Positions 5,536-20,000 are shown, counted from the stretch's first letter. The stretch is 20,000 nt of DNA from an uncultured virus (IMG/VR IMGVR_UViG_3300042451_000642) (IMGVR_UViG_3300042451_000642), one strand, 5' to 3'. Numbers and translations: made by a program. The notes: generated by a model not told the origin, from the sequence alone.

Positions 5536-5545
5536 AAAAAATTAT

Positions 5546-7272: not shown

Positions 7273-7276
7273 TGGT

Positions 7277-7537
7277 ATGAGAAGAAAGAAACCATATATG
7301 GATGATATCCATAAGACCACGCCCGTAACCATCACCTATAAGTTCTATAATGATACGGTGATAATGAAGAGAGATGTATATGATTTAACAATCAGGGACC
7401 TAATGGAACTAAATCGGTCCATGGTGGTGAATGTCTTTGATGAACAACTCTATCAGGAGTATATTATCCAATTAGCAGGGGAGTTAACAAAGAAAAAGAA
7501 TCCAATTAAGAACTTTATAGATAGAATACTAAGATAA
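7277..7537 (+). CDS. Hypothetical protein
   Basis: 86-aa ORF directly behind a promoter. Confidence 0.75.
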   Translation: MRRKKPYMDDIHKTTPVTITYKFYNDTVIMKRDVYDLTIRDLMELNRSMVVNVFDEQLYQEYIIQLAGELTKKKNPIKNFIDRILR

Positions 7538-7538
7538 A

Positions 7539-7570
7539 TTTGGAATATACGGAATAATATGTTATATTTG
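7539..7570 (+). promoter_or_regulatory. Bacteroidota-type promoter, probably leaderless
   Basis: TTTG 7539-7542, 20 nt, TATATTTG 7563-7570, ATG at 7575. Confidence 0.75.
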
Positions 7571-7574
7571 TGTT

Positions 7575-8963: not shown

Positions 8964-8972
8964 TCTTCACCT

Positions 8973-9024
8973 GTTCACGTTTACGTGAACGTTCACTGTC
9001 CGTGAACATAGGTATTTTGTGAAC
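8973..9024. repeat. Cluster of GTTCAC/GTGAAC inverted repeats
   Basis: GTTCACGT-TT-ACGTGAAC, GTTCAC-TGTCC-GTGAAC, and a further GTGAAC at 9019. Confidence 0.75.
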
Positions 9025-9096
9025 ACCTTTACTATCCTGAAGGGAGGAGACGAGAGTCTCCGACCGACAATTACACCCTATAAAATTACCCCTCAG

Positions 9097-9121
9097 AACC
9101 CCTCCATAGGGGTTTTATTTT
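9097..9121 (+). terminator. Possible intrinsic terminator for left-arm transcription
   Basis: AACCCC-TCCATA-GGGGTT followed by TTATTTT. Confidence 0.45.
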
Positions 9122-9242
9122 ACCCCGAATTTTTTCCTGTTTATACCACTAAAAACCCTACTTTTTCCTGTCTGTTTTATCGTGATCAATTAATATATCT
9201 AAAACTATCTTTTTCTATCCCATATTTGGGTTCTAGTATAAT

Positions 9243-9270
9243 TTATCCACAATTCCCCACTTTCTCCCAC
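9243..9270. promoter_or_regulatory. DnaA box overlapping an MraZ-like (GTGG-N6)x3 array
   Basis: TTATCCACA at 9243-9251; CCAC at 9247, 9257 and 9267 (10-nt period). Confidence 0.4.
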
Positions 9271-9453
9271 TTACTAGGAATGTTCACTGGGATTGACCCG
9301 TGAGCGAATCACAGACCATTTTATTTTTTCTACCAGAATATACCCCTAATATCATTATATTATTACGGTCGGACTCTTCGAGTCCTCCCTTCAGGATGTC
9401 ATACAACGTCTTAGTATAACCCTTTATATATTATATTAATCTGTCATACATTA

Positions 9454-9469
9454 GGTTCCACGTGGAACC
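9454..9469. promoter_or_regulatory. parS-like perfect 16-bp palindrome
   Basis: GGTTCCACGTGGAACC; the inner 14 bp match the parS-type TGTTCCACGTGGAACA. Confidence 0.55.
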
Positions 9470-9748
9470 CTGAAGGGGGACCGAAGGTCCCCCGTATAAT
9501 AGAATATTCGTAATACAGGATGAAGGGGACCGAAGGTCCCCGAGTATACTTATAATACTTTTATACGGTCCTGATGTGATACGTCTATAATCCCTGAACC
9601 GTAATACAAACATTACTGGGGAAACCCACCCATGGGAAATAGTTTGCCAAACAACATTAAGATTACTGGGGAGACCAATATTGTTTGGCAGATTATACGG
9701 GGACCTTCGGTCCCCTTCAGGAGAATCTCGGAATAATCCTATGGAAAT

Positions 9749-9780
9749 TAAAAAAACCCTTAGGGATTTTCCGAAGGGTT
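9749..9780 (-). terminator. Intrinsic terminator downstream of the 294-aa ORF
   Basis: On the - strand: AACCCTTCGG-AAAATC-CCTAAGGGTT followed by a T run. Confidence 0.6.
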
Positions 9781-9852
9781 CTTAGTATAGTACAATATAT
9801 GTCTTACAAGGAAAGGATGAAGGGGGACCGAAGGTCCCCCGTAAGTAATACG

Positions 9853-10737
9853 TTATATCCATTTATAAATAAAGTTGAACTTATCTAAATTACTTGAAAA
9901 ACGAACAGGAACTAAATCATTTGATTTAAGTATGTATTTTATTCTTTCTGTTAATAGTGTTTCTAATAGTTCTTTTTTAGGTACTGCATAATCTTCAGAA
10001 AGTTTTGGGTACTCTATATAGATTGGCATGAAATCGAAGTCTACTTCCCCAGTAATCTTGTTGTGGCTTCTTGCATCACATTTGAACTTAAGTTTAACAT
10101 TTTTGGGGAATTTATAATATACCTTGATTTGTTTTAATTCACCATCATCTCCCATACTCGTATTGATTTCATCTGGTATTGTAAAGGTTCCCTCCTCGAC
10201 GAAGTCAAGATGAACCTGAAGGTTATGTGGAGTATTCTTTTGGGATTGGAGTTGTCTCAGACCTCTATTAATTCTTTCCAAGGTGGTGTCGTCGAGTTCC
10301 ATTACAGATCTGAATCCCACGGGATCTTTAAGAAAAGTCATCAGAGTCTTTACTTTACGAACTTCTTTTGTCCATTGAAGTATCTCCACGGGTAATACAG
10401 TGTCCATTGCACTGTTTAAGTTAAATCCAATGAATTCATTCATTCCCCCAGTAAATAATAGGTCACTGATCCTCACCATGGTTTCACCCATCTCATTACC
10501 ATCTTTATCCATGTACTCGTCATACATGGGCTTGAACTTCTCCGCAATCTCGGTCATCAACTTGAATATTATATCTGGTTGGACCTGAGTCTCACGTATT
10601 ACGATGTTCAAGTAAGATCCAAATGTACCAAAAGTTTCAGGTAGTGTATAATAAATCTCACCGTTTATTGAGTTCAGCGGACCCCTCAGAGATTTTACGA
10701 ATCTCTCGAAATCTGATTTGTCTAAAATTTTTCCCAT
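9853..10737 (-). CDS. Hypothetical protein (294 aa)
   Basis: Long ORF with no recognised motif; TATATTTATA just upstream on the - strand. Confidence 0.85.
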   Translation of the reverse strand: MGKILDKSDFERFVKSLRGPLNSINGEIYYTLPETFGTFGSYLNIVIRETQVQPDIIFKLMTEIAEKFKPMYDEYMDKDGNEMGETMVRISDLLFTGGMNEFIGFNLNSAMDTVLPVEILQWTKEVRKVKTLMTFLKDPVGFRSVMELDDTTLERINRGLRQLQSQKNTPHNLQVHLDFVEEGTFTIPDEINTSMGDDGELKQIKVYYKFPKNVKLKFKCDARSHNKITGEVDFDFMPIYIEYPKLSEDYAVPKKELLETLLTERIKYILKSNDLVPVRFSSNLDKFNFIYKWI

Positions 10738-10749
10738 AGATATAAATAT

Positions 10750-10779
10750 AAAAAAAAAGGTTCCATTGTGGTGGAACCT
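10750..10779 (-). terminator. Intrinsic terminator after the AP2-like gene
   Basis: AGGTTCCA-CCACAA-TGGAACCT plus T8 on the - strand. Confidence 0.75.
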
Positions 10780-10805
10780 CTTAGTAATACATGTGTGTAA
10801 TAAGA

Positions 10806-10985
10806 CTATCGTCCCATTAACTCGTTACGGAACTGTACGGCCTTTCTCTTGCTTGAGAAATTCTTAGAGTACTTAGTACCATTAACACTTACACGTACAC
10901 GGTAAGATGAACCATCATGATAGATGTTGTCGGCAACAGGAACATATGTAGTAACTGTGGTGCGACGGGATGTTGTTTTTTTCAT
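10806..10985 (-). CDS. Stand-alone AP2/integrase-arm-like DNA-binding mini-protein (59 aa, not in ORF track)
   Basis: MKKTTSRRTTVTTYVPVADNIYHDGSSYRVRVSVNGTKYSKNFSSKRKAVQFRNELMGR*; basic; three-strand plus helix pattern; followed by its own terminator. Confidence 0.7.
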   Translation of the reverse strand: MKKTTSRRTTVTTYVPVADNIYHDGSSYRVRVSVNGTKYSKNFSSKRKAVQFRNELMGR

Positions 10986-11131
10986 TTGTGACTATTTTAA
11001 GTTTATATATAAAATATAACAAATAATATCCAAATAAAAAAATCCTGCCAAAAAATATTTTACCCCAGTAAACTTAGACCATCTTGCTGTTGGTCAGAGG
11101 TGAATTCCCCAGTAATGTTCCGAGTCCCTGA

Positions 11132-11272
11132 TCAGGTCCCACTGTTGAGATATCTATCTCCCCACTTCTTGGTCATATAGGCATCATACCTATGTACCTT
11201 GTTCGGGTTGAACAGGAATATCACGAAGTAGTAATCCCACTTCCACTCTAAATCTTTTAAAAACTTCTTCAT
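11132..11272 (-). CDS. Small aromatic-rich hypothetical protein (46 aa, not in ORF track)
   Basis: MKKFLKDLEWKWDYYFVIFLFNPNKVHRYDAYMTKKWGDRYLNSGT*. Confidence 0.6.
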   Translation of the reverse strand: MKKFLKDLEWKWDYYFVIFLFNPNKVHRYDAYMTKKWGDRYLNSGT

Positions 11273-11298
11273 ATGATGTTGTTTATTCCCCAGTAATG

Positions 11299-11499
11299 TT
11301 ATCCCATCTTCTCCTTCCTGAGGATGTCGGTCAGAAGATTTTTGTGATTTTGAACGATTACACCGTGCTGTTTCTTAAGAGCTTCCTCTAAGGACATTCG
11401 TTTGTGTGTAATCTTCCAATTGATTCTGTCGGTCGACTCCCATCGTTCCCAATGCTTACCACTAGGTGAGAGCTGAATTCTACTGTGAATCTTTTTCAT
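11299..11499 (-). CDS. Hypothetical protein (66 aa)
   Basis: Start revised to MKKIHSRIQ at 11499 because a promoter lies at 11523-11554. Confidence 0.65.
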   Translation of the reverse strand: MKKIHSRIQLSPSGKHWERWESTDRINWKITHKRMSLEEALKKQHGVIVQNHKNLLTDILRKEKMG

Positions 11500-11522
11500 T
11501 TGTTTTTTATTTGATAATTCCG

Positions 11523-11554
11523 CAAAGGTACGGTGTTTAAGGGTTAATACCAAA
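11523..11554 (-). promoter_or_regulatory. Bacteroidota-type promoter
   Basis: TTTG-N20-TACCTTTG on the - strand. Confidence 0.7.
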
Positions 11555-11557
11555 CCC

Positions 11558-12124
11558 TTAAACAAATTCTTCAGTTTTAATCATATTGAAATCAATTGAC
11601 TTCAGTTTGAATACTAAGTAGTCGATTGCTATTCCCACAATCTTTCCATTGTGCTTGGCTACAAGAAGTCGGTAGGAACCATCCCCATAACCTGAAGACG
11701 ATACTACCCCAGTATTATATGATCCCCACTGTTGGCTTGACAAGGTTAATCTACACATCTTCTCATACCACTTATCTCCCTCACCCTCACACGGTAACAT
11801 AAAGTCCATCTTAGGTGCTGTTATCTCGTCAGCAATGGAATCATTCCTATAGGACTCCATATCAAATATCCCACACTGACCTGAGTCAACACCGATATCT
11901 GCTGCGGTAACTGTTCTCCAAGACAAATCGTCCTCCACATAATCCTTGTGGACAGCAACAAGTGCTGCACATCTTGTACCCCAACCACCGGTCTCATCCG
12001 ATTTGAATGCTGTGGAGGAGTACTCACCAGGTAATACATCTGTCAACTTATGCTGACACCAGGTAGGGACAGTGTAACAAGGGTCCGATACCATAACTTC
12101 CGAGCCTAAATAAATTTTTTCCAT
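11558..12124 (-). CDS. DUF4241-like protein
   Basis: VSDPCY, IGVDSGQCGIFD, SSGYGDGSY...GKIVGIAIDY. Confidence 0.65.
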   Translation of the reverse strand: MEKIYLGSEVMVSDPCYTVPTWCQHKLTDVLPGEYSSTAFKSDETGGWGTRCAALVAVHKDYVEDDLSWRTVTAADIGVDSGQCGIFDMESYRNDSIADEITAPKMDFMLPCEGEGDKWYEKMCRLTLSSQQWGSYNTGVVSSSGYGDGSYRLLVAKHNGKIVGIAIDYLVFKLKSIDFNMIKTEEFV

Positions 12125-12125
12125 T

Positions 12126-12449
12126 TTAAATTACATTTATTGTGAATGATTCTGTTTCGATTTGTCTGTGTAAATAAACTAAGTGTTCCATTGTAAGGTC
12201 GTTATAACCTAAGTCGTGGTAACCATCTCCTGTAATACCTTTGGTGATTAACTGACCTGTGCTTCCACATATCCCTATAACAACTACTTTAACTTGGTAG
12301 TCGTCGTCGAAGTTTTGGGTAAACCACACTGAGAATGGATTGATTAATTCTAATTCAAATTCGTCCCCTCCGTTAAGTTTAACGGTTCTGTGGACAATAT
12401 CTCGGTGAATGGAATCACGGAGCTTTAGTAACTCTTGAGAGTAATTCAT
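12126..12449 (-). CDS. Hypothetical protein
   Basis: 107-aa ORF abutting the downstream gene. Confidence 0.75.
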   Translation of the reverse strand: MNYSQELLKLRDSIHRDIVHRTVKLNGGDEFELELINPFSVWFTQNFDDDYQVKVVVIGICGSTGQLITKGITGDGYHDLGYNDLTMEHLVYLHRQIETESFTINVI

Positions 12450-12473
12450 ATGATTAATAGTTTAAGTGTAATA

Positions 12474-12505
12474 CGAAATTAAGTATTCTTTTCGAATATT
12501 CCAAA
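12474..12505 (-). promoter_or_regulatory. Bacteroidota-type promoter (variant -7)
   Basis: TTTG-N20-TAATTTCG. Confidence 0.55.
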
Positions 12506-12988
12506 TTATGCTAGAATATTTTTTAGAACTTTAATATTCTCGTCAATCTCAAGGTCCATCACTTTAAGTAACTTCTCCTTGGCTAACTCCATAAACTCTA
12601 CACTGTTACCCAGTAAATCTATGTCCGTCCCGTGCACATCCGTCTTCCCGACGATAACCCTGATGTCCTTAGTACCTTTACCCTCTCTATAGAATAGAGC
12701 TCGAGCATAGATGTACTCACGAACCAAAGACAGTTTGATTTCATCTGCCACAGATTCCTTAGAACGGAGTTGCATAATGATTTCTTCTAACTTGGCTAAC
12801 ATCTCGAAGTTGGTCTTCATCATACGGATGCTGTTCTTATACTGATTACAGTACTTCACCAGCTCATCAGTGTGAGGAATACTTAAGTCGATGTCCACAT
12901 TAAGGAAACGATCGTATGAACTAATTCTATCTCGGGTACCCACTATCTCAGTGAATACTCCTCCCGTTAAACGATTTTCTCTACCCAT
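12506..12988 (-). CDS. Hypothetical protein
   Basis: 160-aa ORF. Confidence 0.8.
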   Translation of the reverse strand: MGRENRLTGGVFTEIVGTRDRISSYDRFLNVDIDLSIPHTDELVKYCNQYKNSIRMMKTNFEMLAKLEEIIMQLRSKESVADEIKLSLVREYIYARALFYREGKGTKDIRVIVGKTDVHGTDIDLLGNSVEFMELAKEKLLKVMDLEIDENIKVLKNILA

Positions 12989-13188
12989 TTTATTTTTGTT
13001 TTTAATTTGTTTAAAATCCCAGTAAACTTGTCCCCATCCTGGCTCACCTCAGGTGCGAACTCATATCTCGTGTTCATTGTACCCCCCAAATAACCAGTAA
13101 AGTATTTGGTTGGTTCAACATATTGACTCGATACTCTATATCTTTCCACCCACTCATTAAATGATAATGGGGTTTGGAATGTGCTCAT
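12967..13188 (-). CDS. Hypothetical protein
   Basis: Probable start MSTFQT at 13188, directly after the upstream stop. Confidence 0.65.
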   Translation of the reverse strand: MSTFQTPLSFNEWVERYRVSSQYVEPTKYFTGYLGGTMNTRYEFAPEVSQDGDKFTGILNKLKTKIKWVEKIV

Positions 13189-13189
13189 C

Positions 13190-13825
13190 TTACATTTCAG
13201 TTTCTTTTCCATATATCTCTTTTAATTCGTTAAAAATTTCTTCTAATTTTTTAAGGTCTTCGTCCCCAGTAATAAAATGGAACATTTCCTTCACCGACTC
13301 GAAGGTTACATCTTCATCACTCTCGAACAAATAGTCAATGTCCCCGTCGATAGATTCAAAGAAGTTCTCCTTGTCGAAAAGATATCTACCCTCATTGTAT
13401 GAATAATCTTCTTCGGTTAATCCATTCTCATTGTCAAAATAAGATTTACCACAGAAGTCACAACCTGGTTCTTCATAATATAACTCACACTTCACATTGA
13501 ATAACCTACCCAAGTGTTGAATGAAGTTTATTGGTGGTGACCAAGCTGAATCGAACGACATTGTTATTGATTCGTCATCATAAGTGATATTAGCTTCGTT
13601 GTATGACACATCCCACTTACAACCCCAGTAATTAATGTTGGCATCGTACCATCCTCCGTGTTCGTATTCATTTAACTCAATAGATTTGTCACGACCAACA
13701 AGAGCCATAAAAATACCAGGGGATGTGTTATCCTTACTCTCGATATCTTCGAGATAAAATTTAATTCTGTCCAAGTTTTCGTTATCACCTGTAATAGTAA
13801 GGTGATTGTTGCACCAATTTGGCAT
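13190..13825 (-). CDS. YubB/DUF1281-like ferredoxin-fold phage/plasmid protein
   Basis: MPNWCNNHLTITG, WYDANINYWGCKWD, FDSAWSPP, YEEPGCDFCG. Confidence 0.8.
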   Translation of the reverse strand: MPNWCNNHLTITGDNENLDRIKFYLEDIESKDNTSPGIFMALVGRDKSIELNEYEHGGWYDANINYWGCKWDVSYNEANITYDDESITMSFDSAWSPPINFIQHLGRLFNVKCELYYEEPGCDFCGKSYFDNENGLTEEDYSYNEGRYLFDKENFFESIDGDIDYLFESDEDVTFESVKEMFHFITGDEDLKKLEEIFNELKEIYGKETEM

Positions 13826-13846
13826 AGTTGTATGATTTATGTTTAA

Positions 13847-13878
13847 CAAAGATATAACAGGGATATCATTATTCCAAA
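13847..13878 (-). promoter_or_regulatory. Bacteroidota-type promoter
   Basis: TTTG-N20-TATCTTTG. Confidence 0.75.
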
Positions 13879-13899
13879 TAATATCCCCGTTATTTTATT

Positions 13900-14382
13900 T
13901 TACCAAGAAGCTCTGTATTCAAAGTCACCAGAGTACAATCCGTGTTCTTTGGATTGTTCGTGTTCTTCTAACAACTCCTCAATGATTTTGATAGTTGAGT
14001 TTACATCTTCTTTGTAATACTCATCAATTTCATCACCACCGAAAAAGAAACCCTGTACTGGTGGAAGAAGTTCTTTAGCCTTATCAAAGTTGGAACTAAC
14101 TTCTTTTAGTGTTTCAAATAACTCTTTCAGCTTGTCCTCATCAACATTGATGTTTTGACATTCATCAATACCACCACCACAATTCTCAACGAACCATCCG
14201 TGAAGTGCATTGAACTTTCTCCAATACGCCACCTGTTCGGTGATGTAACAAATACGATTTGGTTTAATGTCGTTACGAACTACACCATTCTTTTTAACTT
14301 CGATTTGGTGTTGTTGTTCAGGTGGGTTGTGTTCCCAATTTTGTACATAAGTTCTTTTGTACAGATACATGTCTAGTCCCAT
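13900..14382 (-). CDS. Conserved phage protein of unknown function (MGLDMY...YWRKxN family)
   Basis: MGLDMYL, VAYWRKFNALHGWF, LLP..GFFFG, YRASW. Confidence 0.8.
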   Translation of the reverse strand: MGLDMYLYKRTYVQNWEHNPPEQQHQIEVKKNGVVRNDIKPNRICYITEQVAYWRKFNALHGWFVENCGGGIDECQNINVDEDKLKELFETLKEVSSNFDKAKELLPPVQGFFFGGDEIDEYYKEDVNSTIKIIEELLEEHEQSKEHGLYSGDFEYRASW

Positions 14383-14413
14383 GATTTTTTAGTTTAAGTG
14401 TTAATTAATAATG

Positions 14414-14445
14414 TAAAGGTATTACAATAATTTTATTATACCAAA
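14414..14445 (-). promoter_or_regulatory. Bacteroidota-type promoter (variant -7)
   Basis: TTTG-N20-TACCTTTA. Confidence 0.55.
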
Positions 14446-14817
14446 TTATTTTATGAAAAGTTTACTATCGATTGTAAATAATTCTTTGTACTCACTTCCG
14501 TCAGCATTCTGTCCGTTTAAATTCCAGAATGGCAACACTCTTGGATTGTATTTTAAATGTGCGGTAGTTTCAGGAATAAAATCTTCGGTAAGAATTTCTA
14601 TTTCTTTACAAAGAACATAAGCACAAACGACTTTGGTGGTTTCCCCAGTAAATATTTTCTGCGCTGCTGTCCTGTTGTTTTTCAGAACGCAATCAGTTAG
14701 TATTAACTGAACTTCAGCTGGGTGATAATATTTCACCCAGCCGTTGTTATATTCAATTTTCCATTTCATATAGTTCTCTCCCTTTCCGAGATTGAACCTA
14801 ACTTTATGCTTTTTCAA
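14446..14817 (-). CDS. Hypothetical protein
   Basis: Likely TTG start near 14817 (KKHKVRFNLGKGENYMKWKI); the longer ORF-track start would overlap the upstream gene by about 200 nt. Confidence 0.65.
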   Translation of the reverse strand: MKKHKVRFNLGKGENYMKWKIEYNNGWVKYYHPAEVQLILTDCVLKNNRTAAQKIFTGETTKVVCAYVLCKEIEILTEDFIPETTAHLKYNPRVLPFWNLNGQNADGSEYKELFTIDSKLFIK

Positions 14818-15256
14818 CTTCTTCCTTTTTATATTTTTTAACAAATTGGGATGGAGTACCACGAAACAATTCAGTTTTATTTCCGTCGTTCTCATAACAA
14901 ACAAACTCAATGGAGTAATCTTCTTTAACGATAACATCATAAAGATAATCTTCCCAAGAATTTCCACGACTTGACAAAGATTGTACATAGGTGTTTCCTG
15001 TTTCGCCACCTTTTAATTTCCAAATGAGTTGAGCAGCTAAGCAACCAGCGCCGTTGAATACTAATTTCTTTTCATTAGCACCATACCCATTAACGACTTT
15101 TCCTGTTGATAACCATTCAGCGGTTTCAAGTGGATGACCTGTTGGGTATCCGTCGTACTGACGATAGATTAAACAGATTTCATTCTGTTTTACTTTTTTT
15201 ACTTTTTTACCTGTTGAGTATTCCTCAATGATGCGGTAAGTTGAACGAGTTCCCAT
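14804..15256 (-). CDS. Conserved phage protein (MGTRS...YDGYP family)
   Basis: MGTRST, IYRQYDGYP, FNGAGCLAAQL, EDYLY; start revised to 15256, downstream of the promoter. Confidence 0.8.
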   Translation of the reverse strand: MGTRSTYRIIEEYSTGKKVKKVKQNEICLIYRQYDGYPTGHPLETAEWLSTGKVVNGYGANEKKLVFNGAGCLAAQLIWKLKGGETGNTYVQSLSSRGNSWEDYLYDVIVKEDYSIEFVCYENDGNKTELFRGTPSQFVKKYKKEEVEKA

Positions 15257-15289
15257 AATAAATTTTTTTTTGTGATTAATATTATGATA

Positions 15290-15320
15290 CAAAGATAATA
15301 CTTTTTTATTACCTGCCAAA
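15290..15320 (-). promoter_or_regulatory. Bacteroidota-type promoter
   Basis: TTTG-N19-TATCTTTG with AT-rich upstream tract. Confidence 0.75.
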
Positions 15321-15350
15321 TTTATTTTCAACTTTTTTAAAAAAATATTT

Positions 15351-15490
15351 GCCGGCGTCATGCATAATCCTAAACATTACTGGGGTGTAATACGGATCTG
15401 ATCGGCGCACGATCTGCAAAACTGGCTAAACATTACTGGGATGTACCCCAGTAAACTTTCGCCTCAGGCCTGTGCAGATACAGTGCACAG
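15351..15490. repeat. TTACTGGG cassette 1
   Basis: TTACTGGG at 15377 and 15433, CCCAGTAA at 15447; GC-rich palindromic spacers. Confidence 0.85.
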
Positions 15491-15491
15491 C

Positions 15492-15519
15492 AAAAAAAAT
15501 CCCCACCTTTCGGTGAGGA
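15492..15519 (-). terminator. Intrinsic terminator
   Basis: TCCTCACC-GAAA-GGTGGGGA plus T8. Confidence 0.85.
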
Positions 15520-15526
15520 CATTAAA

Positions 15527-16285
15527 TTAAAGTTGTATGACAAACTTATTCTTTGTTAACTTATTTCGAACTCGTTTATATTTTAGTCCGACAATTACAT
15601 TCTTTTTATCTTTATACCTCATATCGTATAAATCCCCATCGATTACTTTCCTATCCCAAAATGTTTTAGGTACTTTATTAAAAACAACCGCCACCCTTAC
15701 ATTCTTATTTAACATTGAGTGACACTCATTTAAATTGTGACCGCTATAAGAGAAAGTTAAATCGTAGTTCTTATATTTTTTAAGTAGTTCGATTCTTTTA
15801 GGAACCTTCGTATAATCGTAGAATTGAATATGTTGAAAGTATTGTAAAATATTAACGGGTTTATCATTTACATGAAGATAAAACGATTCGGGTGTTATAT
15901 CTGATGTGTTATTCAAACGAACTGAAAATTTATAACCTAACTTCTTAGCCTTCAATTCAGTTGCTTTAATTTCATCGAATAACCAACTGACAAAAAATTC
16001 TCTGTGTTCAAAAAACAATTTAGTTTTTGCAATTCGTGAACGATTAATTTTATCGTCCTCCATGTTCATCGTGTTCATCCCTGATTCATTCAAACATAAC
16101 TTTGTACATTCTTTTGTTCTCATAGGGCAAACCTCGTAACCGCTCATTTTTGCAGGAGCTAAGTACAAACTATATGTTAATTCATCGTACTTGAATGCCT
16201 TCTGATGTTTGGTTGTCATATTAACGGAGCCTAAATAAGATATCCCTGTTAATCTTTTTGCTTGAGCTTTAGTAGTGTAAATCAT
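15527..16285 (-). CDS. GP88-like (gene product 88) phage protein with CxxxxxxCxxxC cluster
   Basis: LYLAPA..SGYEVCP....CTKLCL, VRLNNTSDI, QFYDYTK, YDLTFSYS, IDGDLYDMR; start revised to 16285. Confidence 0.75.
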   Translation of the reverse strand: MIYTTKAQAKRLTGISYLGSVNMTTKHQKAFKYDELTYSLYLAPAKMSGYEVCPMRTKECTKLCLNESGMNTMNMEDDKINRSRIAKTKLFFEHREFFVSWLFDEIKATELKAKKLGYKFSVRLNNTSDITPESFYLHVNDKPVNILQYFQHIQFYDYTKVPKRIELLKKYKNYDLTFSYSGHNLNECHSMLNKNVRVAVVFNKVPKTFWDRKVIDGDLYDMRYKDKKNVIVGLKYKRVRNKLTKNKFVIQL

Positions 16286-16306
16286 TTGTTTATTTTTTAG
16301 TGTACA

Positions 16307-16338
16307 CAAATATACAACTAATACTTTTATATTCCAAA
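16307..16338 (-). promoter_or_regulatory. Bacteroidota-type promoter
   Basis: TTTG-N20-TATATTTG. Confidence 0.75.
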
Positions 16339-16360
16339 TTTATTTTTAAATATTTTTTTG

Positions 16361-16508
16361 AGTCAGCGCATGCGCGCAGCACTGGCCTAACTTTACTGGG
16401 GTAATACGACACAGATTTTGCATGCAGATTACAGGTGAATAATTACTGGGATGTACCCCAGTAAACTTGTGCGCTGGTCCGAGCTGCGTTTGCGCTGAGG
16501 GTAATACG
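16361..16508. repeat. TTACTGGG cassette 2
   Basis: TTACTGGG at 16393 and 16443, CCCAGTAA at 16457; core ATTACTGGGATGTACCCCAGTAAACTT identical to cassette 1. Confidence 0.85.
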
Positions 16509-16509
16509 C

Positions 16510-16539
16510 AAAAAAAAGGGTGAACATTTCTGTCCACCC
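16510..16539 (-). terminator. Intrinsic terminator
   Basis: GGGTGGACA-GAAA-TGTTCACCC plus T8. Confidence 0.85.
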
Positions 16540-16560
16540 AATCGTTCACACTAATAAACA

Positions 16561-16875
16561 CTAATCACTAATTCGTTTTTCTGTTCTAATACACTCAGCT
16601 TCCCACTGCTCACATAGAAGTAATACATCTTCCAACACATTCTCATTCAACTCCCAATAACTTTCTTCGTAGGTGTCGATAGCGTCAGAACTACTTGAAC
16701 GAGGTTCGTACACATTTACTTCGATATAATCTTCTGTGAAATATTCACCCAACCCAACATAGTTACCTAGTGTACCAACGAGAATACTATTCTCACCTTC
16801 TAATTCTCCAATACTAAAACATCCGTTGACTTTTAGTATGTCTGTAATACGATTAATGATTTCTGAATTTTCCAT
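16561..16875 (-). CDS. Acidic hypothetical protein
   Basis: 104-aa ORF. Confidence 0.75.
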   Translation of the reverse strand: MENSEIINRITDILKVNGCFSIGELEGENSILVGTLGNYVGLGEYFTEDYIEVNVYEPRSSSSDAIDTYEESYWELNENVLEDVLLLCEQWEAECIRTEKRISD

Positions 16876-16877
16876 TT

Positions 16878-17150
16878 TTAAATTGATTTAGTATTATCCC
16901 AAATTATATTACCTTCCTCGTCATACAACTCCTCCGTAGGTTCTCCACCATTTTCGTCAGGCATTATACGCTCAAGAGTTTCGTCAATATGTTCCCACGG
17001 CAGTTCAGTGGTTCCCATTTCTAAATGAAATCCAATTGCTAATTGTTTAGCCTCCTCCATTGAGTTAGCCTCGATTTCAAATTCGGTACGATACCAGGTC
17101 GTAACCTTTGTGTCCAAATGAAAGTTAAATGTTGTTAGGGTCTGTTCCAT
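16878..17150 (-). CDS. Acidic hypothetical protein
   Basis: 90-aa ORF with EFEIEANSMEEAKQLA, a pattern common in small phage proteins. Confidence 0.75.
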   Translation of the reverse strand: MEQTLTTFNFHLDTKVTTWYRTEFEIEANSMEEAKQLAIGFHLEMGTTELPWEHIDETLERIMPDENGGEPTEELYDEEGNIIWDNTKSI

Positions 17151-17250
17151 TTTCTATTGATTTTTTAATTGATATAATAAGTAATACAACCATTACCGAA
17201 AACAATACAATAACTCCGAATCCTAAAAGTAGACAATATAAGACATTCAT
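17125..17250 (-). CDS. Single-pass membrane micro-protein (41 aa, not in ORF track)
   Basis: MNVLYCLLLGFGVIVLFSVMVVLLIISIKKSIENGTDPNNI*. Confidence 0.55.
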   Translation of the reverse strand: MNVLYCLLLGFGVIVLFSVMVVLLIISIKKSIENGTDPNNI

Positions 17251-17261
17251 AGTTTTAATTT

Positions 17262-17459
17262 TTAAAGTTCACGAATATACATATAATCTTCTAATTCTTC
17301 CAAAGGAATTCTTCCGTTATTAGAACTATAATATCCTTGTCTTCGATATCGTTCTTTCCACTTGTCAAATGCCTCAAATGCTTTTTCCTTTGATGTGTAA
17401 TAAGGTCTATCGAATTCAATCGTAAACCCGTCGGGGGATAATACTTCGTACTTTGTCAT
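17262..17459 (-). CDS. Hypothetical protein
   Basis: 65-aa ORF; ATGA overlap with the upstream gene. Confidence 0.75.
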   Translation of the reverse strand: MTKYEVLSPDGFTIEFDRPYYTSKEKAFEAFDKWKERYRRQGYYSSNNGRIPLEELEDYMYIREL

Positions 17460-17806
17460 AGTCCTGCATTTTTAATGATACAATCTAATTTATATTCAAA
17501 TTCTTCCCTCATACCTTCAATGTCATATACCTTTCTATTTTCATCCACTTCATTATCTTCATTAATGTAAGGATGATAAAAAGCAACATCCACTTCAATT
17601 ACATTCGGTTTAAATTCCTTAACCATACTAATTGAATATTCGTGTTTAATTAAGGTATCTTGGTGTTGTGAACCACTATACCTATTTTGTCTATGTTGTT
17701 CCACAACTTGGTGTGAACCCATAGGTTTCCAACCATTTTTAATTAGGTTGTTAATTTTCTCCGTCAATCCTTCGGGGGATGAACTTGTTAATACTTTGTA
17801 CTCCAT
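17456..17806 (-). CDS. DUF1737-like N-terminal domain protein
   Basis: MEYKVLTSSSPEGLTEKINNLIKNGWKPMGS...YSISMVK; start revised to 17806. Confidence 0.65.
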   Translation of the reverse strand: MEYKVLTSSSPEGLTEKINNLIKNGWKPMGSHQVVEQHRQNRYSGSQHQDTLIKHEYSISMVKEFKPNVIEVDVAFYHPYINEDNEVDENRKVYDIEGMREEFEYKLDCIIKNAGL

Positions 17807-17828
17807 AATATTTTTGTTTAGTGTAAGA

Positions 17829-17860
17829 CAAAGATAAAACAATAATATTATTTTACCAAA
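17829..17860 (-). promoter_or_regulatory. Bacteroidota-type promoter
   Basis: TTTG-N20-TATCTTTG. Confidence 0.75.
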
Positions 17861-17881
17861 TTTATTTTGAAGAATTTTTTT

Positions 17882-18070
17882 TCAGCCCGATCATCCTAAA
17901 CATTACTGGGTTGAATTGTTAGCCAGCGCAAATTTCCTGATCAGCGCGCGCAAATCTGGCTAATGTTTACTGGGGTGTCCCAGTAATAATCACTTGCGCA
18001 CAATGCCTGGTCCATGAGTTATTTGTAATACCCCAGTAAACTTCATGATCAGCGCACAGTGTGACGGGTT
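17882..18070. repeat. TTACTGGG cassette 3
   Basis: TTACTGGG at 17903 and 17967, CCCAGTAA at 17979 and 18032. Confidence 0.85.
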
Positions 18071-18079
18071 CTTCTAAAC

Positions 18080-18111
18080 AAAAAACCCCCGAACCAAAAG
18101 TCCGAGGGTTT
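18080..18111 (-). terminator. Intrinsic terminator
   Basis: AACCCTCGGAC-TTTTG-GTTCGGGGGTT plus T run. Confidence 0.8.
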
Positions 18112-18137
18112 CACCAATCTAATCTTTAACCTTTGTC

Positions 18138-18416
18138 TTATCTTAGTCTTTCATCAACAACTAAGTTATAATATCCGTTTAAGAAATTAATTATTTCTGT
18201 AATACTTTCTTTTGACACTTTATGTTCTAATAACAATGATTCGATAAATCGTTTATTATCCGTCAAACCTAAACAATAAATAAAACCATTATCATCGTTT
18301 TTAGTATTAAAAAAAGTAAAATCAATTTCAATCGGTTTTAATTTAATTCTTACTTTCTGATAATTCTCAGAATCAATTTTCAAAGTTTTAGTTTTAATAA
18401 CTTTACTTGTGTCCAT
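18138..18416 (-). CDS. Hypothetical protein (very AT-rich)
   Basis: 92-aa ORF between the DUF932 gene and a terminator. Confidence 0.65.
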   Translation of the reverse strand: MDTSKVIKTKTLKIDSENYQKVRIKLKPIEIDFTFFNTKNDDNGFIYCLGLTDNKRFIESLLLEHKVSKESITEIINFLNGYYNLVVDERLR

Positions 18417-18443
18417 ACTTTTATTTTTTTAATTATTAATGTC

Positions 18444-19304
18444 TTACACTAAATGTACAAGTTCCTTAAAGATTTGTCTCTCACGATTTCCGTAAGTTCC
18501 GAACATCTTATTTTCAGAATTGTCACCTTTACCCATACTATGAGTTGTGTATTTTGTTACACCACTAAATAAACCCCAAATGTTATCACCCTTTTCGTTA
18601 ATCTCACCATTAAGGTCGACATAGAATCTACTTAATTTGTTTCGTGTTACGATATGTAACGAATCAACATCCTTAATATCAACATTCTTTTCGATATTGA
18701 ATAATGATTTGATTACTCTATCCTTGATAATATCATCGAAACGAGTTTCACTCATTTTAACGATAGAACCGAACACATTCTTTTCTTCTTGTACTACACC
18801 CTCAATTTGTCGACAGATATCTTCTATCTTTAATTCCATATTCTTTGTATGACGTACCTTTGAATCTAAATCCTTGTACACACCAAAGAATGTGTTTTGA
18901 CAACTGATAGTTTTAGAACTAGGTCCGAACGATAATGAAGTCGAACCATCAAAAGAATTAATCCCAGTAACATAACCCTCGATTCTATCCGTCCCCAAGG
19001 TTAAGTCGTTTGATTTTAATTGAACGAATACTTTTCGTCCACCACCGAACAAACCACCTCTGTGAACATCAAGTCCAGTTTGTTGTGATACTTTGAATAA
19101 TAGTTCCATCATTTGGTCATTCTGATATGGTACATAACCATTCGAGTGAATACCCAAGATTGTACTATCATCCTCACGAACGATACCAATTTTATCAGGG
19201 ATAATAATTCCTGACGAAGTTTGAAGTCCTTCGGTACGGACTTTCCAATTTAAACCAGTTCTATCCAAGAACTGATTAACCCGATTGTTTTCTACGATTT
19301 CCAT
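18444..19304 (-). CDS. DUF932/DUF945 phage/plasmid-like protein (TIGR03299-like)
   Basis: GLNWKV, VREDDSTILG...YVPYQN, GGLFGGGRKVFV, NSFDGS, SCQNT, RHT, WGLFSGVTKYTTH. Confidence 0.85.
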   Translation of the reverse strand: MEIVENNRVNQFLDRTGLNWKVRTEGLQTSSGIIIPDKIGIVREDDSTILGIHSNGYVPYQNDQMMELLFKVSQQTGLDVHRGGLFGGGRKVFVQLKSNDLTLGTDRIEGYVTGINSFDGSTSLSFGPSSKTISCQNTFFGVYKDLDSKVRHTKNMELKIEDICRQIEGVVQEEKNVFGSIVKMSETRFDDIIKDRVIKSLFNIEKNVDIKDVDSLHIVTRNKLSRFYVDLNGEINEKGDNIWGLFSGVTKYTTHSMGKGDNSENKMFGTYGNRERQIFKELVHLV

Positions 19305-19341
19305 CTGTTTAATTTTTATGGTTTAATAAATGATTGTATGA

Positions 19342-19373
19342 CAAAGATAAATCAATTTGGCATATAATCCAAA
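19342..19373 (-). promoter_or_regulatory. Bacteroidota-type promoter
   Basis: TTTG-N20-TATCTTTG. Confidence 0.75.
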
Positions 19374-19404
19374 TTTATTTTTAAGAAATATTAATTAATT
19401 TTTT

Positions 19405-19500
19405 CTCCTGATCCACCTGTGATCAGAGCTCCCAATATTACTGGGTAATACTTGATGATACCCCAGTAATTTTATGGGATGATCAGGGACGAGAAATCTG
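19405..19500. repeat. TTACTGGG cassette 4
   Basis: TTACTGGG at 19438, CCCAGTAA at 19462; flanked by TGATCA twice and GAGCTC. Confidence 0.8.
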
Positions 19501-19507
19501 TGGACAT

Positions 19508-19535
19508 AAAAAAACCCCCGACAGAATCGGAGGTC
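19508..19535 (-). terminator. Intrinsic terminator
   Basis: ACCTCCGA-TTCTG-TCGGGGGT plus T run. Confidence 0.8.
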
Positions 19536-19554
19536 TTTAATATAATAAGGGATT

Positions 19555-19878
19555 TTACTCCCCTAATAAATTTAGTACAAGGTGTTCGGAAGTTTCCTCC
19601 TCCCACACATCATCATTCCAATCCTCACCGACTTGTGTACAAGTCTTGTAGTCAAGGTAGACAATACCCATTTTAATTGTGACAATTCCTTCGGTTCTTT
19701 CGTTGATGGGAACCAACTCTTTTTCCACAAGGAATAAAAGTACGGTTTCGTAGACAAAAAATTGGTCGGTATTTTCCGACTCAACATATTCAACTTGACC
19801 TTGGAAGTCAAGGGAGAATTCGAATTCCATGTCAGAACTCAAAATCTTTTTAATCTCGGATAAGTATGTAGTATCCAT
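19555..19878 (-). CDS. Acidic hypothetical protein
   Basis: 107-aa ORF between a promoter and a terminator. Confidence 0.75.
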   Translation of the reverse strand: MDTTYLSEIKKILSSDMEFEFSLDFQGQVEYVESENTDQFFVYETVLLFLVEKELVPINERTEGIVTIKMGIVYLDYKTCTQVGEDWNDDVWEEETSEHLVLNLLGE

Positions 19879-19909
19879 AGTGTGTAGGTCTATTGGTTAG
19901 TAGACAATA

Positions 19910-19940
19910 CAAATATAAAAAAGAAATTCCGTTTTACAAT
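19910..19940 (-). promoter_or_regulatory. Bacteroidota-type promoter (imperfect -33)
   Basis: ATTG-N19-TATATTTG. Confidence 0.6.
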
Positions 19941-19969
19941 ACATTTATGAAAAATTATTTTACTTTTTT

Positions 19970-20000
19970 TCTGACCCTGGTAATCCAAATATATTACTGG
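19970..20000. repeat. Start of a probable fifth TTACTGGG cassette (truncated by window end)
   Basis: TTACTGG at 19994-20000, in the same position relative to a promoter as in cassettes 1-4. Confidence 0.6.

What the first reader, a model, noticed from the sequence alone, without database searches (positions are those of the whole stretch)
9613..20000. TTACTGGG: a sharply bounded, polarised octamer marking only the right arm
Seen (manual count): + strand copies at 9613, 9663, 15377, 15433, 16393, 16443, 17903, 17967, 19438 (plus a truncated one at 19994); - strand copies at 10048, 10447, 11064, 11108, 11289, 12609, 13018, 13265, 13624, 14644, 15447, 16457, 17979, 18032, 18963, 19462. That is 25 copies in 10.4 kb and none noticed in 1-9600; chance expectation at about one-third GC is well under one per 10 kb. 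All eight in-gene copies lie on the coding strand but in three reading frames (ITG/FTG/VTG, LLG, YWG), so selection is on the DNA rather than the peptide. Extended forms are AACATTACTGGGG and AAGTTTACTGGG. Inference: a region-specific protein-binding mark on the early (possibly first-injected) DNA, such as a protective coat, a translocation or injection guide (KOPS/Chi-like polarity) or a global early regulator. I do not recognise this motif from any described system.
Basis: partly seen in the sequence, partly recalled or inferred. Interest (0 to 1): 0.9.

Follow-up and report, generated by a model that had tools for sequence, protein, structure and literature searches.

The report
Octamer boxes marking phage early island
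An exact eight-letter DNA word repeated about sixty times marks one 18-kb block of small early-type genes in a giant lake-water phage, most likely as docking sites for a phage-specific factor, and related phages use different words in the same layout.

Summary
TTACTGGG occurs 25 times in the window (0.65 expected). All 36 copies in the 54.8-kb contig lie in its last 13.6 kb. In longer relatives the motif fills a block of about 18 kb bounded on both sides, inside a phage genome of about 310-340 kb. The copies are under selection: 33 of 33 aligned copies are intact in a relative 88% identical (53% background), and 23 of 23 third-codon positions inside in-gene copies are unchanged (80% background). 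"Polarised" does not hold. Strand counts are near even (15:21; 28:33), and codon usage largely explains the 8:0 in-gene bias (p about 0.12).

The boxes sit in a fixed inter-cassette module: terminator, about 40 nt, nested inverted boxes, about 55 nt, next promoter. A 10-box AT-rich array closes the upstream end. Related lineages keep this layout but use other words (TTACCGGG, TGATTGGC, TGTGTGGC and others).

Best reading (about 0.4): docking boxes for an unidentified, lineage-specific DNA-binding factor that controls or insulates this early cassette block. The modules also serve as cassette-exchange junctions. The block shows about twice the read depth of its flank, so it may be a long terminal repeat.

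The parts
8964..9850 (.). Non-coding left boundary of the block, where the two arms converge. It holds a GTGAAC/GTTCAC cluster (8973-9034), a perfect DnaA-box sequence (9243-9251) and four copies of the hairpin GGGGACCGAAGGTCCCC (about 9476-9496, 9525-9545, 9699-9719, 9823-9843).
   Evidence: Sequence read. Repeat families D8 and I9. Motif map. DnaA box and GTGAAC cluster. Contig depth steps from 5.3 to 12.6 at 9001-9030.
9613..9670 (+). Two boxes on the + strand (9613, 9663; 'A' orientation relative to the leftward genes), 50 nt apart, between the boundary hairpins.
10048..14651 (-). Eleven single boxes, all on the - strand. Eight are inside genes (10048, 10447, 12609, 13018, 13265, 13624, 14644; 18963 lies further right). 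Three are in short spacers (11064, 11108, 11289). This half of the block has the same gene order in all strains compared.
   Evidence: frames; gene order; conservation.
15362..15520 (-). Inter-cassette module. It comprises terminator 15520-15499, sense box 15447, tight inverted partner 15433 (loop 6 nt), GTATTAC, and outer partner 15377. The next promoter is at 15290-15320.
16340..16545 (-). Inter-cassette module. It comprises terminator 16539-16518, GTATTAC, sense box 16457, partner 16443, and GTATTAC plus outer partner 16393. The next promoter is at 16307-16338.
17865..18115 (-). Inter-cassette module. It comprises terminator 18112-18082, sense boxes 18032 and 17979, and partners 17967 and 17903 (order S S A A). 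The next promoter is at 17829-17860.
19380..19530 (-). Inter-cassette module with sense box 19462 and partner 19438 (loop 16 nt, containing GTATTAC). The next promoter is at 19342-19373.
19994..20000 (+). Start of a further box, cut by the window end. The block continues for at least 2.7 kb in the contig (11 more copies, to G000 54,296) and for about 7 kb in relatives.
9845..19451 (-). Second, polar motif GTATTAC (written on the gene strand). The contig's block has 26 copies in this orientation and 3 in the other, and there are none on either strand in the first 41 kb. It often abuts a box.
   Evidence: It is conserved in relatives whose boxes differ.

Best explanation
TTACTGGG(G) is the exact 8-9-bp core of a cis-acting box. 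I propose that an unidentified, phage-lineage-specific sequence-specific factor, most likely a protein, reads it on double-stranded DNA. The boxes mark one block of about 18 kb holding roughly 30-35 small leftward genes. In the upstream half, each gene is a cassette: promoter, gene, intrinsic terminator, about 40 nt, boxes in nested inverted order (S..S-loop-A..A, with same-orientation spacing around 53 bp), about 55 nt, next promoter. Ten boxes separated by A/T tracts form an array at the block's upstream end. I infer that the factor binds co-operatively and bridges sense and antisense boxes. This would build a compact complex in each inter-cassette spacer and a larger one at the array. The block's promoters would then be controlled or insulated as one unit, most likely by timed shut-off of early or host-takeover genes. 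Promoters of the same type elsewhere in the genome lack boxes. As a side effect the modules act as portable junctions at which whole cassettes are gained, lost or swapped. Shown here: the restriction to the block, the conservation, the architecture and spacing, the change of word between lineages, and cassette differences bounded by modules. Inferred: that a protein binds, that binding is co-operative, and that the effect is on transcription.
For: Restriction to the block: 36 of 36 copies in the contig, 63 of 64 in G001, 27 of 28 in G002 and 61 of 61 in G003. Selection on the word itself: 33 of 33 aligned copies are intact against 53% of background 8-mers. Inside genes, 23 of 23 third-codon positions are intact against 80.4%. 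Loops and spacers differ between strains while the boxes stay exact. One-mismatch variants are rare: only ATACTGGG (4) and TTCCTGGG (3) reach 3 or more copies, against 62 exact copies found by that script. Architecture: of 56 terminator-like T-runs with a box within 80 nt, in 7 lineages, 49 have a sense box first, and 43 of those 49 lie 33-50 nt after the T-run. Same-orientation neighbours are 44-64 nt apart in 20 of 23 (G003), 18 of 20 (G001) and 10 of 13 (L165) cases. The outer partner box lies 43-65 nt upstream of the -33 element in the four window modules. Bacteroidota-type promoters (TTTG..TAnnTTTG) occur in both arms (24 matches against 3.4 in shuffles), but boxes occur only in the block. 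The word changes between lineages while the layout stays: TTACCGGG, TGATTGGC, TGGTTGGC, GTTTGGC, TGTGTGGC, TTTTGTCTAG. In G005, 20 of 20 TTACCGGGAT copies lie in the homologous block. In the DUF932 gene, the G000-type and L165 boxes sit at the same alignment column and differ by a synonymous ACT to ACC change. Placement after terminators and before promoters, and an array in an A/T-rich non-coding stretch, favour DNA-level rather than RNA-level reading.
Against: No reader protein was found. The standalone DnaA-domain-IV protein and both phage sigma factors keep their DNA-reading segments across lineages with different boxes. ParB_N occurs in only 1 of 5 records. Near-perfect exactness across about 60 sites is unusual for transcription-factor sites. 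Most boxes lie 40-200 bp upstream of the core promoter, not over it. The loop of the tight inverted pairs varies from 4 to 17 nt in G003 and reaches about 34 nt in one strain, which fits poorly with a rigid dimer. Single in-gene copies have no obvious regulatory target. The two in the last gene have only terminators downstream.
Confidence: 0.4

Rival explanations
1. PeSL-like mobile regulatory cassettes. On this view the modules matter mainly as terminator/promoter junctions for recombination that shuffles cassettes. The boxes would be structural hairpin arms kept alike by gene conversion, with no dedicated reader.
For: Strain differences are whole cassettes flanked by S..A modules: f36 between f4 and f5, and f37/f38 or f32 between f5 and f6. 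Several homology breakpoints between G000 and G001 fall inside modules, for example G000 49,592 inside the 49,583-49,602 hairpin and 51,062 at a box edge. The block is a run of monocistronic units with their own promoters and terminators. The PeSL precedent comes from the abstract of PMC4122927.
Against: Eight base pairs are too short for homologous exchange. Gene conversion should homogenise spacers as well, yet only the boxes are exact. Isolated in-gene copies are conserved at synonymous sites. The conserved spacing to terminators across lineages with unrelated words suggests a reader.
Confidence: 0.2
2. A terminal-repeat or DNA-entry function. The block would be a long direct terminal repeat that enters first, as in T5. 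The boxes and the array would be cis sites for halting injection, capturing or coating the entering DNA, protecting its ends, or defining the repeat during packaging.
For: Exactly matching contigs of a lake DNA run have depth 5.28 and 5.35 in the left arm (1442-2329, 7711-9030) and 10.6-12.6 in the block (six contigs, 9001-19903). The step falls at 9001-9030. Between-strain divergence is similar in the block and the left arm (87.0 against 83.7%; 95.4 against 95.0%), so shared-strain inflation is unlikely. Both boundaries are large non-coding regions full of repeats and palindromes. A G-rich element at the upstream boundary is conserved between lineages. T5's terminal repeat holds pre-early genes and a repeat-rich untranslated injection-stop region (passages of 10.1101/866236).
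Against: The depth comes from one run, which may be the source sample, and from contig k-mer depth rather than read ends. Contig ends of eight assemblies map to scattered places in the block, not to one terminus. The fixed placement of boxes relative to each terminator and promoter is not needed for an entry or packaging signal. T5's paired DnaA boxes are not present.
Confidence: 0.15
3. An RNA-level element. Sense boxes in transcripts would pair with downstream antisense boxes, or with a small RNA, to control processing, stability or read-through of the many terminators.
For: Modules fold better than shuffles as RNA (z -3.95, -4.46, -3.09). In L165 the sense arm TTACCGGG pairs with CCTGGTAA, giving a G-U pair that works only in the sense transcript. 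The exactness of an 8-9-nt word resembles a base-pairing seed. In-gene copies are all in the sense orientation.
Against: Modules lie after intrinsic terminators and before the next promoter, so they should be little transcribed. The fold scores include the terminator hairpins. Flanks next to the core are systematically non-complementary (AAGT against AACA). Spacers change freely without compensating changes. There is no Rfam match. No conserved copy outside the block could encode a guide.
Confidence: 0.12
4. A promoter element read by a phage-encoded sigma factor. The boxes would work like the 8-bp T4 late promoter (recalled).
For: Sigma-70-family genes are present in 4 of 5 related records. 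No Rpb2-type RNA polymerase was found in any of the 5. The box is a short exact word and aligns loosely with TAnnTTTG (T at positions 1 and 5, G at 8).
Against: Sigma regions 2 and 4.2 are nearly identical in records whose boxes are TTACTGGG, TTACCGGG and GCCAATCA. No second promoter element or fixed downstream feature appears in logos of 33 sense and 28 antisense copies. Antisense copies would fire into upstream genes. Boxes are absent from the rest of the genome, where middle and late genes must lie.
Confidence: 0.05
5. A polar guide sequence of the Chi or KOPS kind, read by a translocating enzyme in one direction only.
For: The eleven copies in the conserved left half of the block (window 10048-14651) are all on one strand. 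The word is G-rich at its 3' end, like Chi and KOPS (recalled).
Against: Overall strand counts are 15:21 and 28:33. The upstream half alternates orientation within each module. Codon usage largely explains the in-gene bias. A guide would not need fixed distances to terminators. A scan of representative prokaryote genomes with the extended hairpin pattern found 13 stretches, close to my own estimate of about 19 chance hits (my arithmetic, not a tool figure). The only multi-hit records were small, phage-like contigs of one Bacteroidetes bin.
Confidence: 0.03

Closest known systems
PeSLs (promoter-early stem-loops) of T4-type phages (PMC4122927 abstract read; PMC2839356 seen in the search listing only)
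   Same: These are repeated composite terminator/promoter units between small variable genes in a hyperplastic region. Insertions, deletions and replacements between close relatives are bounded by the units.
   Different: Here terminator and promoter are 150-250 bp apart. The gap holds exact octamer boxes in nested inverted order, plus GCGC/GATC-rich short palindromes. The word differs between lineages. Copies also occur inside genes and in a 10-box array. The promoters are of the Bacteroidota -33/-7 type.
Left terminal repeat, first-step-transfer region and injection stop signal of phage T5 (10.1101/866236, abstract and passages read)
   Same: Both have a block of early genes bordered by large untranslated regions crowded with direct repeats, inverted repeats and palindromes, with an HNH endonuclease gene at the edge. 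Here the block's roughly doubled depth hints at a long terminal repeat.
   Different: The terminal-repeat status here rests on one depth step. T5's conserved feature is eight DnaA boxes in pairs 3 bp apart, which are not seen here. T5 has no exact octamer spread through its whole repeat.
Dispersed asymmetric operators of the phage P1 C1 repressor, and plasmid iterons (recalled, not checked in a paper)
   Same: In both, an asymmetric site occurs many times, singly and as inverted pairs, is read by one phage-encoded protein, and is scattered over many transcription units. Iterons also form arrays next to A/T-rich DNA.
   Different: No reader protein is known here. The sites are shorter and more exact, mostly lie upstream of rather than over promoters, and are confined to one block.
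Chi, KOPS and DNA-uptake sequences (recalled)
   Same: These are exact, short, over-represented words selected at the DNA level. Uptake sequences often occur as inverted pairs after genes.
   Different: Those motifs are genome-wide and, for Chi and KOPS, strongly strand-skewed. This one is confined to 18 kb and is not skewed.

Membership tests
PeSL-type mobile regulatory cassettes | A composite intrinsic terminator plus early promoter lies between genes of a variable region. | tested here: met
   Terminator-like hairpins on the gene strand at 18112-18082, 16539-16518, 15520-15499 and 10782-10755. Promoter matches follow each module.
PeSL-type mobile regulatory cassettes | Indels and replacements between close relatives are bounded by the elements. 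| tested here: met
   The cassette map of five strains shows f36, f37/f38 and f32 present or absent between S..A modules.
PeSL-type mobile regulatory cassettes | The element is a small unit made of just the stem-loop and the promoter. | tested here: not met
   The spacer of 150-250 bp holds 2-4 exact boxes and short GC-rich palindromes. PeSLs are described as small composite terminator/promoter sequences (abstract).
T5-like terminal repeat with injection stop region | A long direct terminal repeat carries the first-expressed genes. | tested here: inconclusive
   Contig depth is 10.6-12.6 in the block against 5.3 in the flank, in one run. No read-end data are available. Contig ends are scattered.
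T5-like terminal repeat with injection stop region | [quoted passage not shown] | tested here: met
   Ten boxes lie within 616 bp of A/T-rich non-coding DNA. A G-rich palindromic element and 2.7 copies of a 23-bp tandem repeat follow. The left boundary is about 900 bp of non-coding DNA with four hairpins.
T5-like terminal repeat with injection stop region | Eight DnaA boxes occur in pairs 3 bp apart. | tested here: not met
   The contig has 4 perfect TTATCCACA sites. None lies 3 bp from another; the closest two are an inverted pair 35 bp apart.
Chi/KOPS-type polar guide octamers | The motif shows a strong strand skew along the direction of travel. | tested here: not met
   Strand counts are 15:21 (contig) and 28:33 (G003). 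The in-gene 8:0 has p about 0.12 under a codon null.
Chi/KOPS-type polar guide octamers | The motif is spread over the whole replicon. | tested here: not met
   One copy lies outside the block in G001 (about 112 kb outside) and one in G002 (about 166 kb outside).
Operator or iteron set of a phage-encoded DNA-binding protein | A repeated specific site occurs singly, in inverted pairs and in arrays. | tested here: met
Operator or iteron set of a phage-encoded DNA-binding protein | A cognate binding protein exists whose specificity changes with the site. | tested here: inconclusive
   None of the three candidates tested co-varies with the box: DnaA domain IV and two sigma factors. The family next to the array (P0002) gave a low-confidence model with pLDDT 56. 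Most proteins were not tested.
DnaA boxes | The sequence fits TT(A/T)TNCACA. | tested here: not met
   TTACTGGGG shares only its first three bases with this consensus (as quoted in 10.1101/866236).
REP/RAYT or IS200/IS605-type hairpin elements | A single-copy HUH tyrosine transposase gene co-occurs with the repeats. | tested here: inconclusive
   No such Pfam or PHROG hit appeared among the 105 ORFs of the contig and the 17 ORFs beside G003's block that were scanned. About 280 kb of the genome was not scanned.

The most novel reading that the evidence does not exclude
The block is a T5-like, first-entering long terminal repeat of a Bacteroidota giant phage. The boxes would be loading sites for a lineage-specific protein that seizes the entering DNA, either halting injection at the 10-box array or coating the exposed early DNA. 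The change of word between lineages would then be an arms-race or mutual-exclusion code that decides which co-infecting relative's early DNA is recognised.
Probability: 0.12. Interest if true: 0.8.

Novelty: new variant of a known kind. Interest (0 to 1): 0.55.

Why it matters
The result gives a clean, testable cis-code for one functional compartment of an uncultured giant phage genome. An exact word, a fixed module layout and a natural series of specificity switches (TTACTGGG, TTACCGGG, TG-NN-TGGC) are all available for study. The box series would supply matched site/protein pairs for specificity studies. The modules also show how small accessory genes are swapped as cassettes, which is where new anti-defence genes tend to appear. 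If the doubled depth reflects a terminal repeat, this would extend T5/SPO1-style genome ends to freshwater Bacteroidota giant phages.

Tried and rejected
1. Megablast of both halves of the window against the phage collection gave no match.

3. A full-text search for TTACTGGGG returned 131 papers. The 10 listed were unrelated (antibody, fungal and other sequences), and I opened none of them.

4. DnaA-domain-IV protein P0001 as reader: it matches E. coli DnaA domain IV (1J1V, E 4e-5), but its RDHTTIIH helix is kept in G004 and G006, whose boxes differ. Rejected.

5. Phage sigma factors as reader: regions 2 and 4.2 are conserved across box types. Rejected.

6. ParB_N was found in 1 of 5 records only.

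7. P0002 is the family next to the array. It is present in 5 of 7 box-bearing loci and 0 of 8 box-less loci, and has 44 homologues, none with a Pfam domain. The AlphaFold model had pLDDT 56, too poor for a fold search.

8. Positional conservation of in-gene boxes between the TTACTGGG and TTACCGGG lineages: only 1 of 5 and 1 of 7 boxes in aligned orthologues are shared.

9. Rfam gave no meaningful hit (one SECIS_4 match at E 0.45).

10. No -33-like or other second element appears around the boxes.

11. Contig ends as physical termini: eight ends map to scattered positions. Two contigs end at the same place, G003 53,727.

12. The scan for the G-rich boundary element gave 5 contigs. One ends 23 nt after the element and one starts about 510 nt before it, which is not decisive.

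13. RNA-library contigs (X22-X24) cover parts of block genes but no module. Contigs cannot show absence, starts or ends.

14. AAGTTTAC in L172-L175 turned out to be the spacer of a very uniform promoter, not a box.

15. A general relaxation of palindrome avoidance in the block is not seen. Only GCGC and GATC differ, and those copies lie in the modules.

Full report
**1. Checking the observation**

TTACTGGG occurs 25 times in the window, at exactly the listed positions and strands. Dinucleotide shuffles give 0.65 on average and never more than 4.

- The window is bases 31,617-51,616 of a 54,812-base virus contig. All 36 copies in that contig lie at 41,229-54,296, and the first 41 kb has none. 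The reversed control word occurs 0 and 2 times.
- CheckV rates the contig 16% complete. A relative of 310,691 bases is rated 93% complete. The genome is therefore about 310-340 kb.
- The truncated copy at 19994 is real.
- The eight in-gene copies are on the coding strand in three frames: six as xTT-ACT-GGG, one as LLG and one as YWG.

**2. The region is a bounded block, not an arm**

A pattern scan of viral contigs found several long relatives.

| Record | Length | Copies in block | Block position | Copies elsewhere |
|---|---|---|---|---|
| G001 | 131 kb | 63 of 64 | 60,489 to about 78,700 | 1 |
| G003 | 69 kb | 61 of 61 | 40,334-57,942 | none in 57,943-69,202 |
| G002 | 176 kb | 27 of 28 | last 10 kb | 1 |

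The motif therefore fills a block of about 18 kb, and the window holds its left 60%.

- The left edge (window about 8,960-9,850) is a non-coding convergence zone with four copies of a GGGGACCGAAGGTCCCC hairpin.
- The right edge, seen in G003, is a 616-bp A/T-rich non-coding stretch with ten boxes. After it come a small gene, a G-rich palindromic element and 2.7 copies of a 23-bp tandem repeat. Rightward genes start beyond that.

**3. Selection acts on the word itself**

- Against G001 (88% identical over the block), 33 of 33 aligned copies are intact, compared with 53% of background 8-mers.
- Inside the eight in-gene copies, 23 of 23 third-codon positions are unchanged, against 80.4% elsewhere (P about 0.007).
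- In alignments of the same module from different strains, loops and spacers differ or are replaced while the boxes stay exact.
- One-mismatch variants are rare: only ATACTGGG (4) and TTCCTGGG (3) reach three copies, against 62 exact copies found by that script.
- The flanks add little: W-W at positions -4 and -3, never C at position 9, and no second element within 45 nt.

**4. Polarity does not hold**

- Strand counts are 9:16 (window), 15:21 (contig) and 28:33 (G003).
- Under the block's own codon usage, the word is expected 0.20 times on the coding strand and its complement 0.06 times.
- The 8:0 split therefore has p about 0.12, while the roughly 40-fold enrichment is real.
- The eleven copies in the conserved left half are all on one strand, which is only mildly unexpected.
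- A second motif is truly polar. GTATTAC, written on the gene strand, occurs 26:3 in the block and is absent from the first 41 kb on both strands. It is 8:1 in genes, which leaves about 18:2 between genes.

**5. Anatomy of the block**

Genes in the block run leftward.

- Promoter matches of the Bacteroidota type (TTTG, 17-23 nt, TAnnTTTG; consensus recalled) number 24 against 3.4 in shuffles. They occur in both arms: 11 on the + strand in the left arm, and 10 of the 13 on the - strand in the block.
- Gene-strand terminator hairpins follow many block genes.
- Between a terminator and the next promoter lies a module, described here in the gene sense.
  - About 40 nt after the T-run comes a sense box (S), sometimes two.
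  - Next is a tight inverted partner (A) after a loop of 4-17 nt.
  - About 50 nt further on there is another A, often abutted by GTATTAC.
  - The -33 element follows after a further 43-65 nt.
- Across seven lineages, 56 terminator-like T-runs have a box within 80 nt. A sense box comes first in 49 of them, and 43 of those 49 lie 33-50 nt after the T-run.
- Same-orientation neighbours are 44-64 nt apart in 20 of 23 (G003), 18 of 20 (G001) and 10 of 13 (L165) cases.
- The modules are also where GCGC and GATC sit. In the window, 12 of 14 GCGC copies in the block are intergenic and 13 lie within 60 nt of a box, while the 9.3-kb left arm has one. The rest of the genome strongly avoids GATC, GCGC, AGCT and CTAG.
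- As single strands the modules fold better than shuffles (z -3.1 to -4.5). Those scores include the terminators.

**6. Relatives keep the layout and change the word**

I fetched loci around homologues of the block's DUF932 gene.

- Close relatives carry TTACTGGG.
- At 44-65% protein identity the homologous blocks are enriched instead for TTACCGGG with partner TTACCAGG (L165/G005), TGATTGGC (L164/G004), TGGTTGGC (L161, L163), GTTTGGC (L162), TGTGTGGC (L169) and TTTTGTCTAGTTTT (L170/G006). Each has the same terminator, box, box, promoter order.
- In G005, 20 of 20 TTACCGGGAT copies lie in the last 14 kb of a 269-kb contig.
- GTATTAC, in the gene sense, is kept across these lineages.
- In the DUF932 gene, the G000-type and L165 boxes sit at the same alignment column and differ by a synonymous ACT to ACC change.
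- Otherwise the in-gene positions are not shared: 1 of 5 and 1 of 7.
- More distant relatives (L166-L168, L171-L178) show no box. An apparent one in L172-L175 is a promoter spacer.

**7. Gene content and plasticity**

- The block's genes are small. Those with a family hit belong to families of unknown function: DUF932, GP88, DUF1281_C, DUF4314 and DUF1737.
- The left arm carries DNA methyltransferases, a thymidylate synthase, glycosyltransferases, sugar-nucleotide enzymes and an HNH endonuclease.
- A cassette map of five strains shows a conserved left half and a variable upstream half. In the variable half, whole cassettes (f36; f37 and f38; f32) are present or absent between S..A modules.
- Several G000/G001 homology breakpoints fall inside modules.

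**8. A possible terminal repeat**

- The phage is found in many lake-water metagenomes.
- In one DNA run, which may be the source sample, exactly matching contigs have depth 5.28 and 5.35 in the left arm and 10.6-12.6 in six block contigs. The step falls at 9001-9030, where five GTGAAC/GTTCAC copies cluster.
- Between-strain divergence is similar inside and outside the block. Several strains sharing an identical block is therefore an unlikely cause.
- A twofold step suggests two copies per genome, that is, a long terminal repeat collapsed by assembly.
- This rests on one run and on contig depth. Contig ends of other assemblies are scattered.

**9.

- *DnaA-domain-IV protein.* It is standalone, 125 aa, at G000 27,925-28,302. 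It was attractive because DnaA boxes are asymmetric 9-mers. However, its recognition helix RDHTTIIH is kept in G004 and G006, whose boxes differ.
- *Sigma-70-family factors.* The family encodes them and has no Rpb2-type polymerase. Sigma regions 2 and 4.2 are nearly identical across box types.
- *ParB_N.* It is present in 1 of 5 records.
- *The 112-aa family next to the array.* It occurs in 5 of 7 box-bearing loci and 0 of 8 box-less loci, but it gave a poor model with pLDDT 56.
- No reader is identified.

**10. Interpretation**

The boxes are exact, and they are independent of their spacers. Their geometry is fixed relative to terminators and to one another. Whole lineages switch word while the layout stays. 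Together these point to a trans-acting, lineage-specific reader of the word.

- Placement after terminators and before promoters, and the array in non-coding A/T-rich DNA, favour reading on DNA.
- The block has the same promoter type as the rest of the genome but is the only part with boxes. The simplest role is therefore block-specific control or insulation of these promoters, with cassette exchange as a by-product.
- I put this at about 0.4.
- The rivals are a reader-less PeSL-like recombination element (0.2), a terminal-repeat or entry function (0.15), an RNA-level element (0.12), a phage-sigma promoter (0.05) and a polar guide (0.03).

**11. Comparison with known systems**

- The layout works like the PeSLs of T4-type phages (abstract of PMC4122927). 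It is not a member of that class, because the spacer with exact boxes is foreign to it.
- It resembles the T5 terminal repeat with its repeat-rich untranslated injection-stop region (10.1101/866236). It lacks the paired DnaA boxes of that region.
- It recalls the dispersed asymmetric operators of P1 C1, and plasmid iterons (both recalled).
- No Rfam family matches.
- A scan of representative prokaryote genomes found no cellular genome rich in the hairpin form. The only multi-hit records were small phage-like contigs in one Bacteroidetes bin.
- One full-text search found no paper linking this word to a phage system. Supplements were not searched.

**Verdict**

This is a real, conserved and previously undescribed box system in a family of uncultured freshwater giant phages. 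It is a new variant of a known kind, namely repeated regulatory modules in a phage early or hyperplastic region.

Noticed in passing
window 9845-19451 and onward (29 copies at G000 41,126-54,347): A second block-specific motif, GTATTAC on the gene strand, occurs 26:3 by strand and is absent from the first 41 kb on both strands. It is kept in relatives whose boxes differ. It often abuts a box or follows a terminator. It also resembles the sequence just after the -7 promoter element (GTCATACA, GTGTACAC).
   Followed up: partly
L010:9925-10299 (G000 27,925-28,302, left of the window): A standalone 125-aa protein made of a DnaA domain IV helix-turn-helix (Pfam E 3.6e-15; matches PDB 1J1V). Its DnaA recognition helix is conserved. 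It is present in G001, G002, G004 and G006.
   Followed up: yes
window 9243-9251; L011 about 17288 and 17323: Perfect DnaA-box sequences (TTATCCACA) occur at the block's left boundary and as an inverted pair 35 bp apart inside the block. Both are conserved in G001. The contig has 4, where I estimate about 0.7 by composition.
   Followed up: partly
window 8973-9034: Five GTGAAC/GTTCAC copies lie within about 60 bp, exactly where contig depth steps from 5.3 to 12.6. The cluster is present at the same place in G002 but was not detected there in G001.
   Followed up: partly
window 9476-9843: Four copies of the strong hairpin GGGGACCGAAGGTCCCC sit in the convergence zone between the arms. They are probably two-way terminators.
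   Followed up: no
G001, whole record outside 60,300-79,300: Four-base palindromes are strongly avoided: GATC 80 against 334 expected, GCGC 10 against 78, AGCT 86 against 334, CTAG 96 against 334. Within the block, GCGC and GATC cluster in the box modules.
   Followed up: partly
L218, L219, L220 (about 270 aa) and L222, L223 (232 aa): The phage family encodes two sigma-70-family factors and no Rpb2-type RNA polymerase subunit, so it probably redirects the host polymerase.
   Followed up: partly
L153:1935-2150 and L164:3701-3820: A G-rich element with the palindrome CCCCTATATAAGGGG is conserved between lineages at the block's upstream boundary. In G003 it is followed by 2.7 copies of a 23-bp tandem repeat. 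It may be a packaging or end site.
   Followed up: partly
window 7575-8963 and L153:2215-10355: HNH and homing endonuclease genes flank the block on both sides: one on the left, and at least four on the right in G003.
   Followed up: no
L009 and L010 (G000 1-37,000): The left arm carries at least four DNA methyltransferases, a thymidylate-synthase-like enzyme, glycosyltransferases, a sugar epimerase and a dTDP-sugar epimerase. Together these suggest modified DNA.
   Followed up: no
L233-L235: Small contigs (1.7 and 2.3 kb) binned into an uncultured Bacteroidetes genome carry two box hairpins each. They look like fragments of this phage family. This is a weak hint about the host phylum, in line with the promoter type.
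   Followed up: no
L224 (G005 250,564-250,785): A ParB_N-domain gene lies just outside the block in the TTACCGGG lineage only.
   Followed up: no
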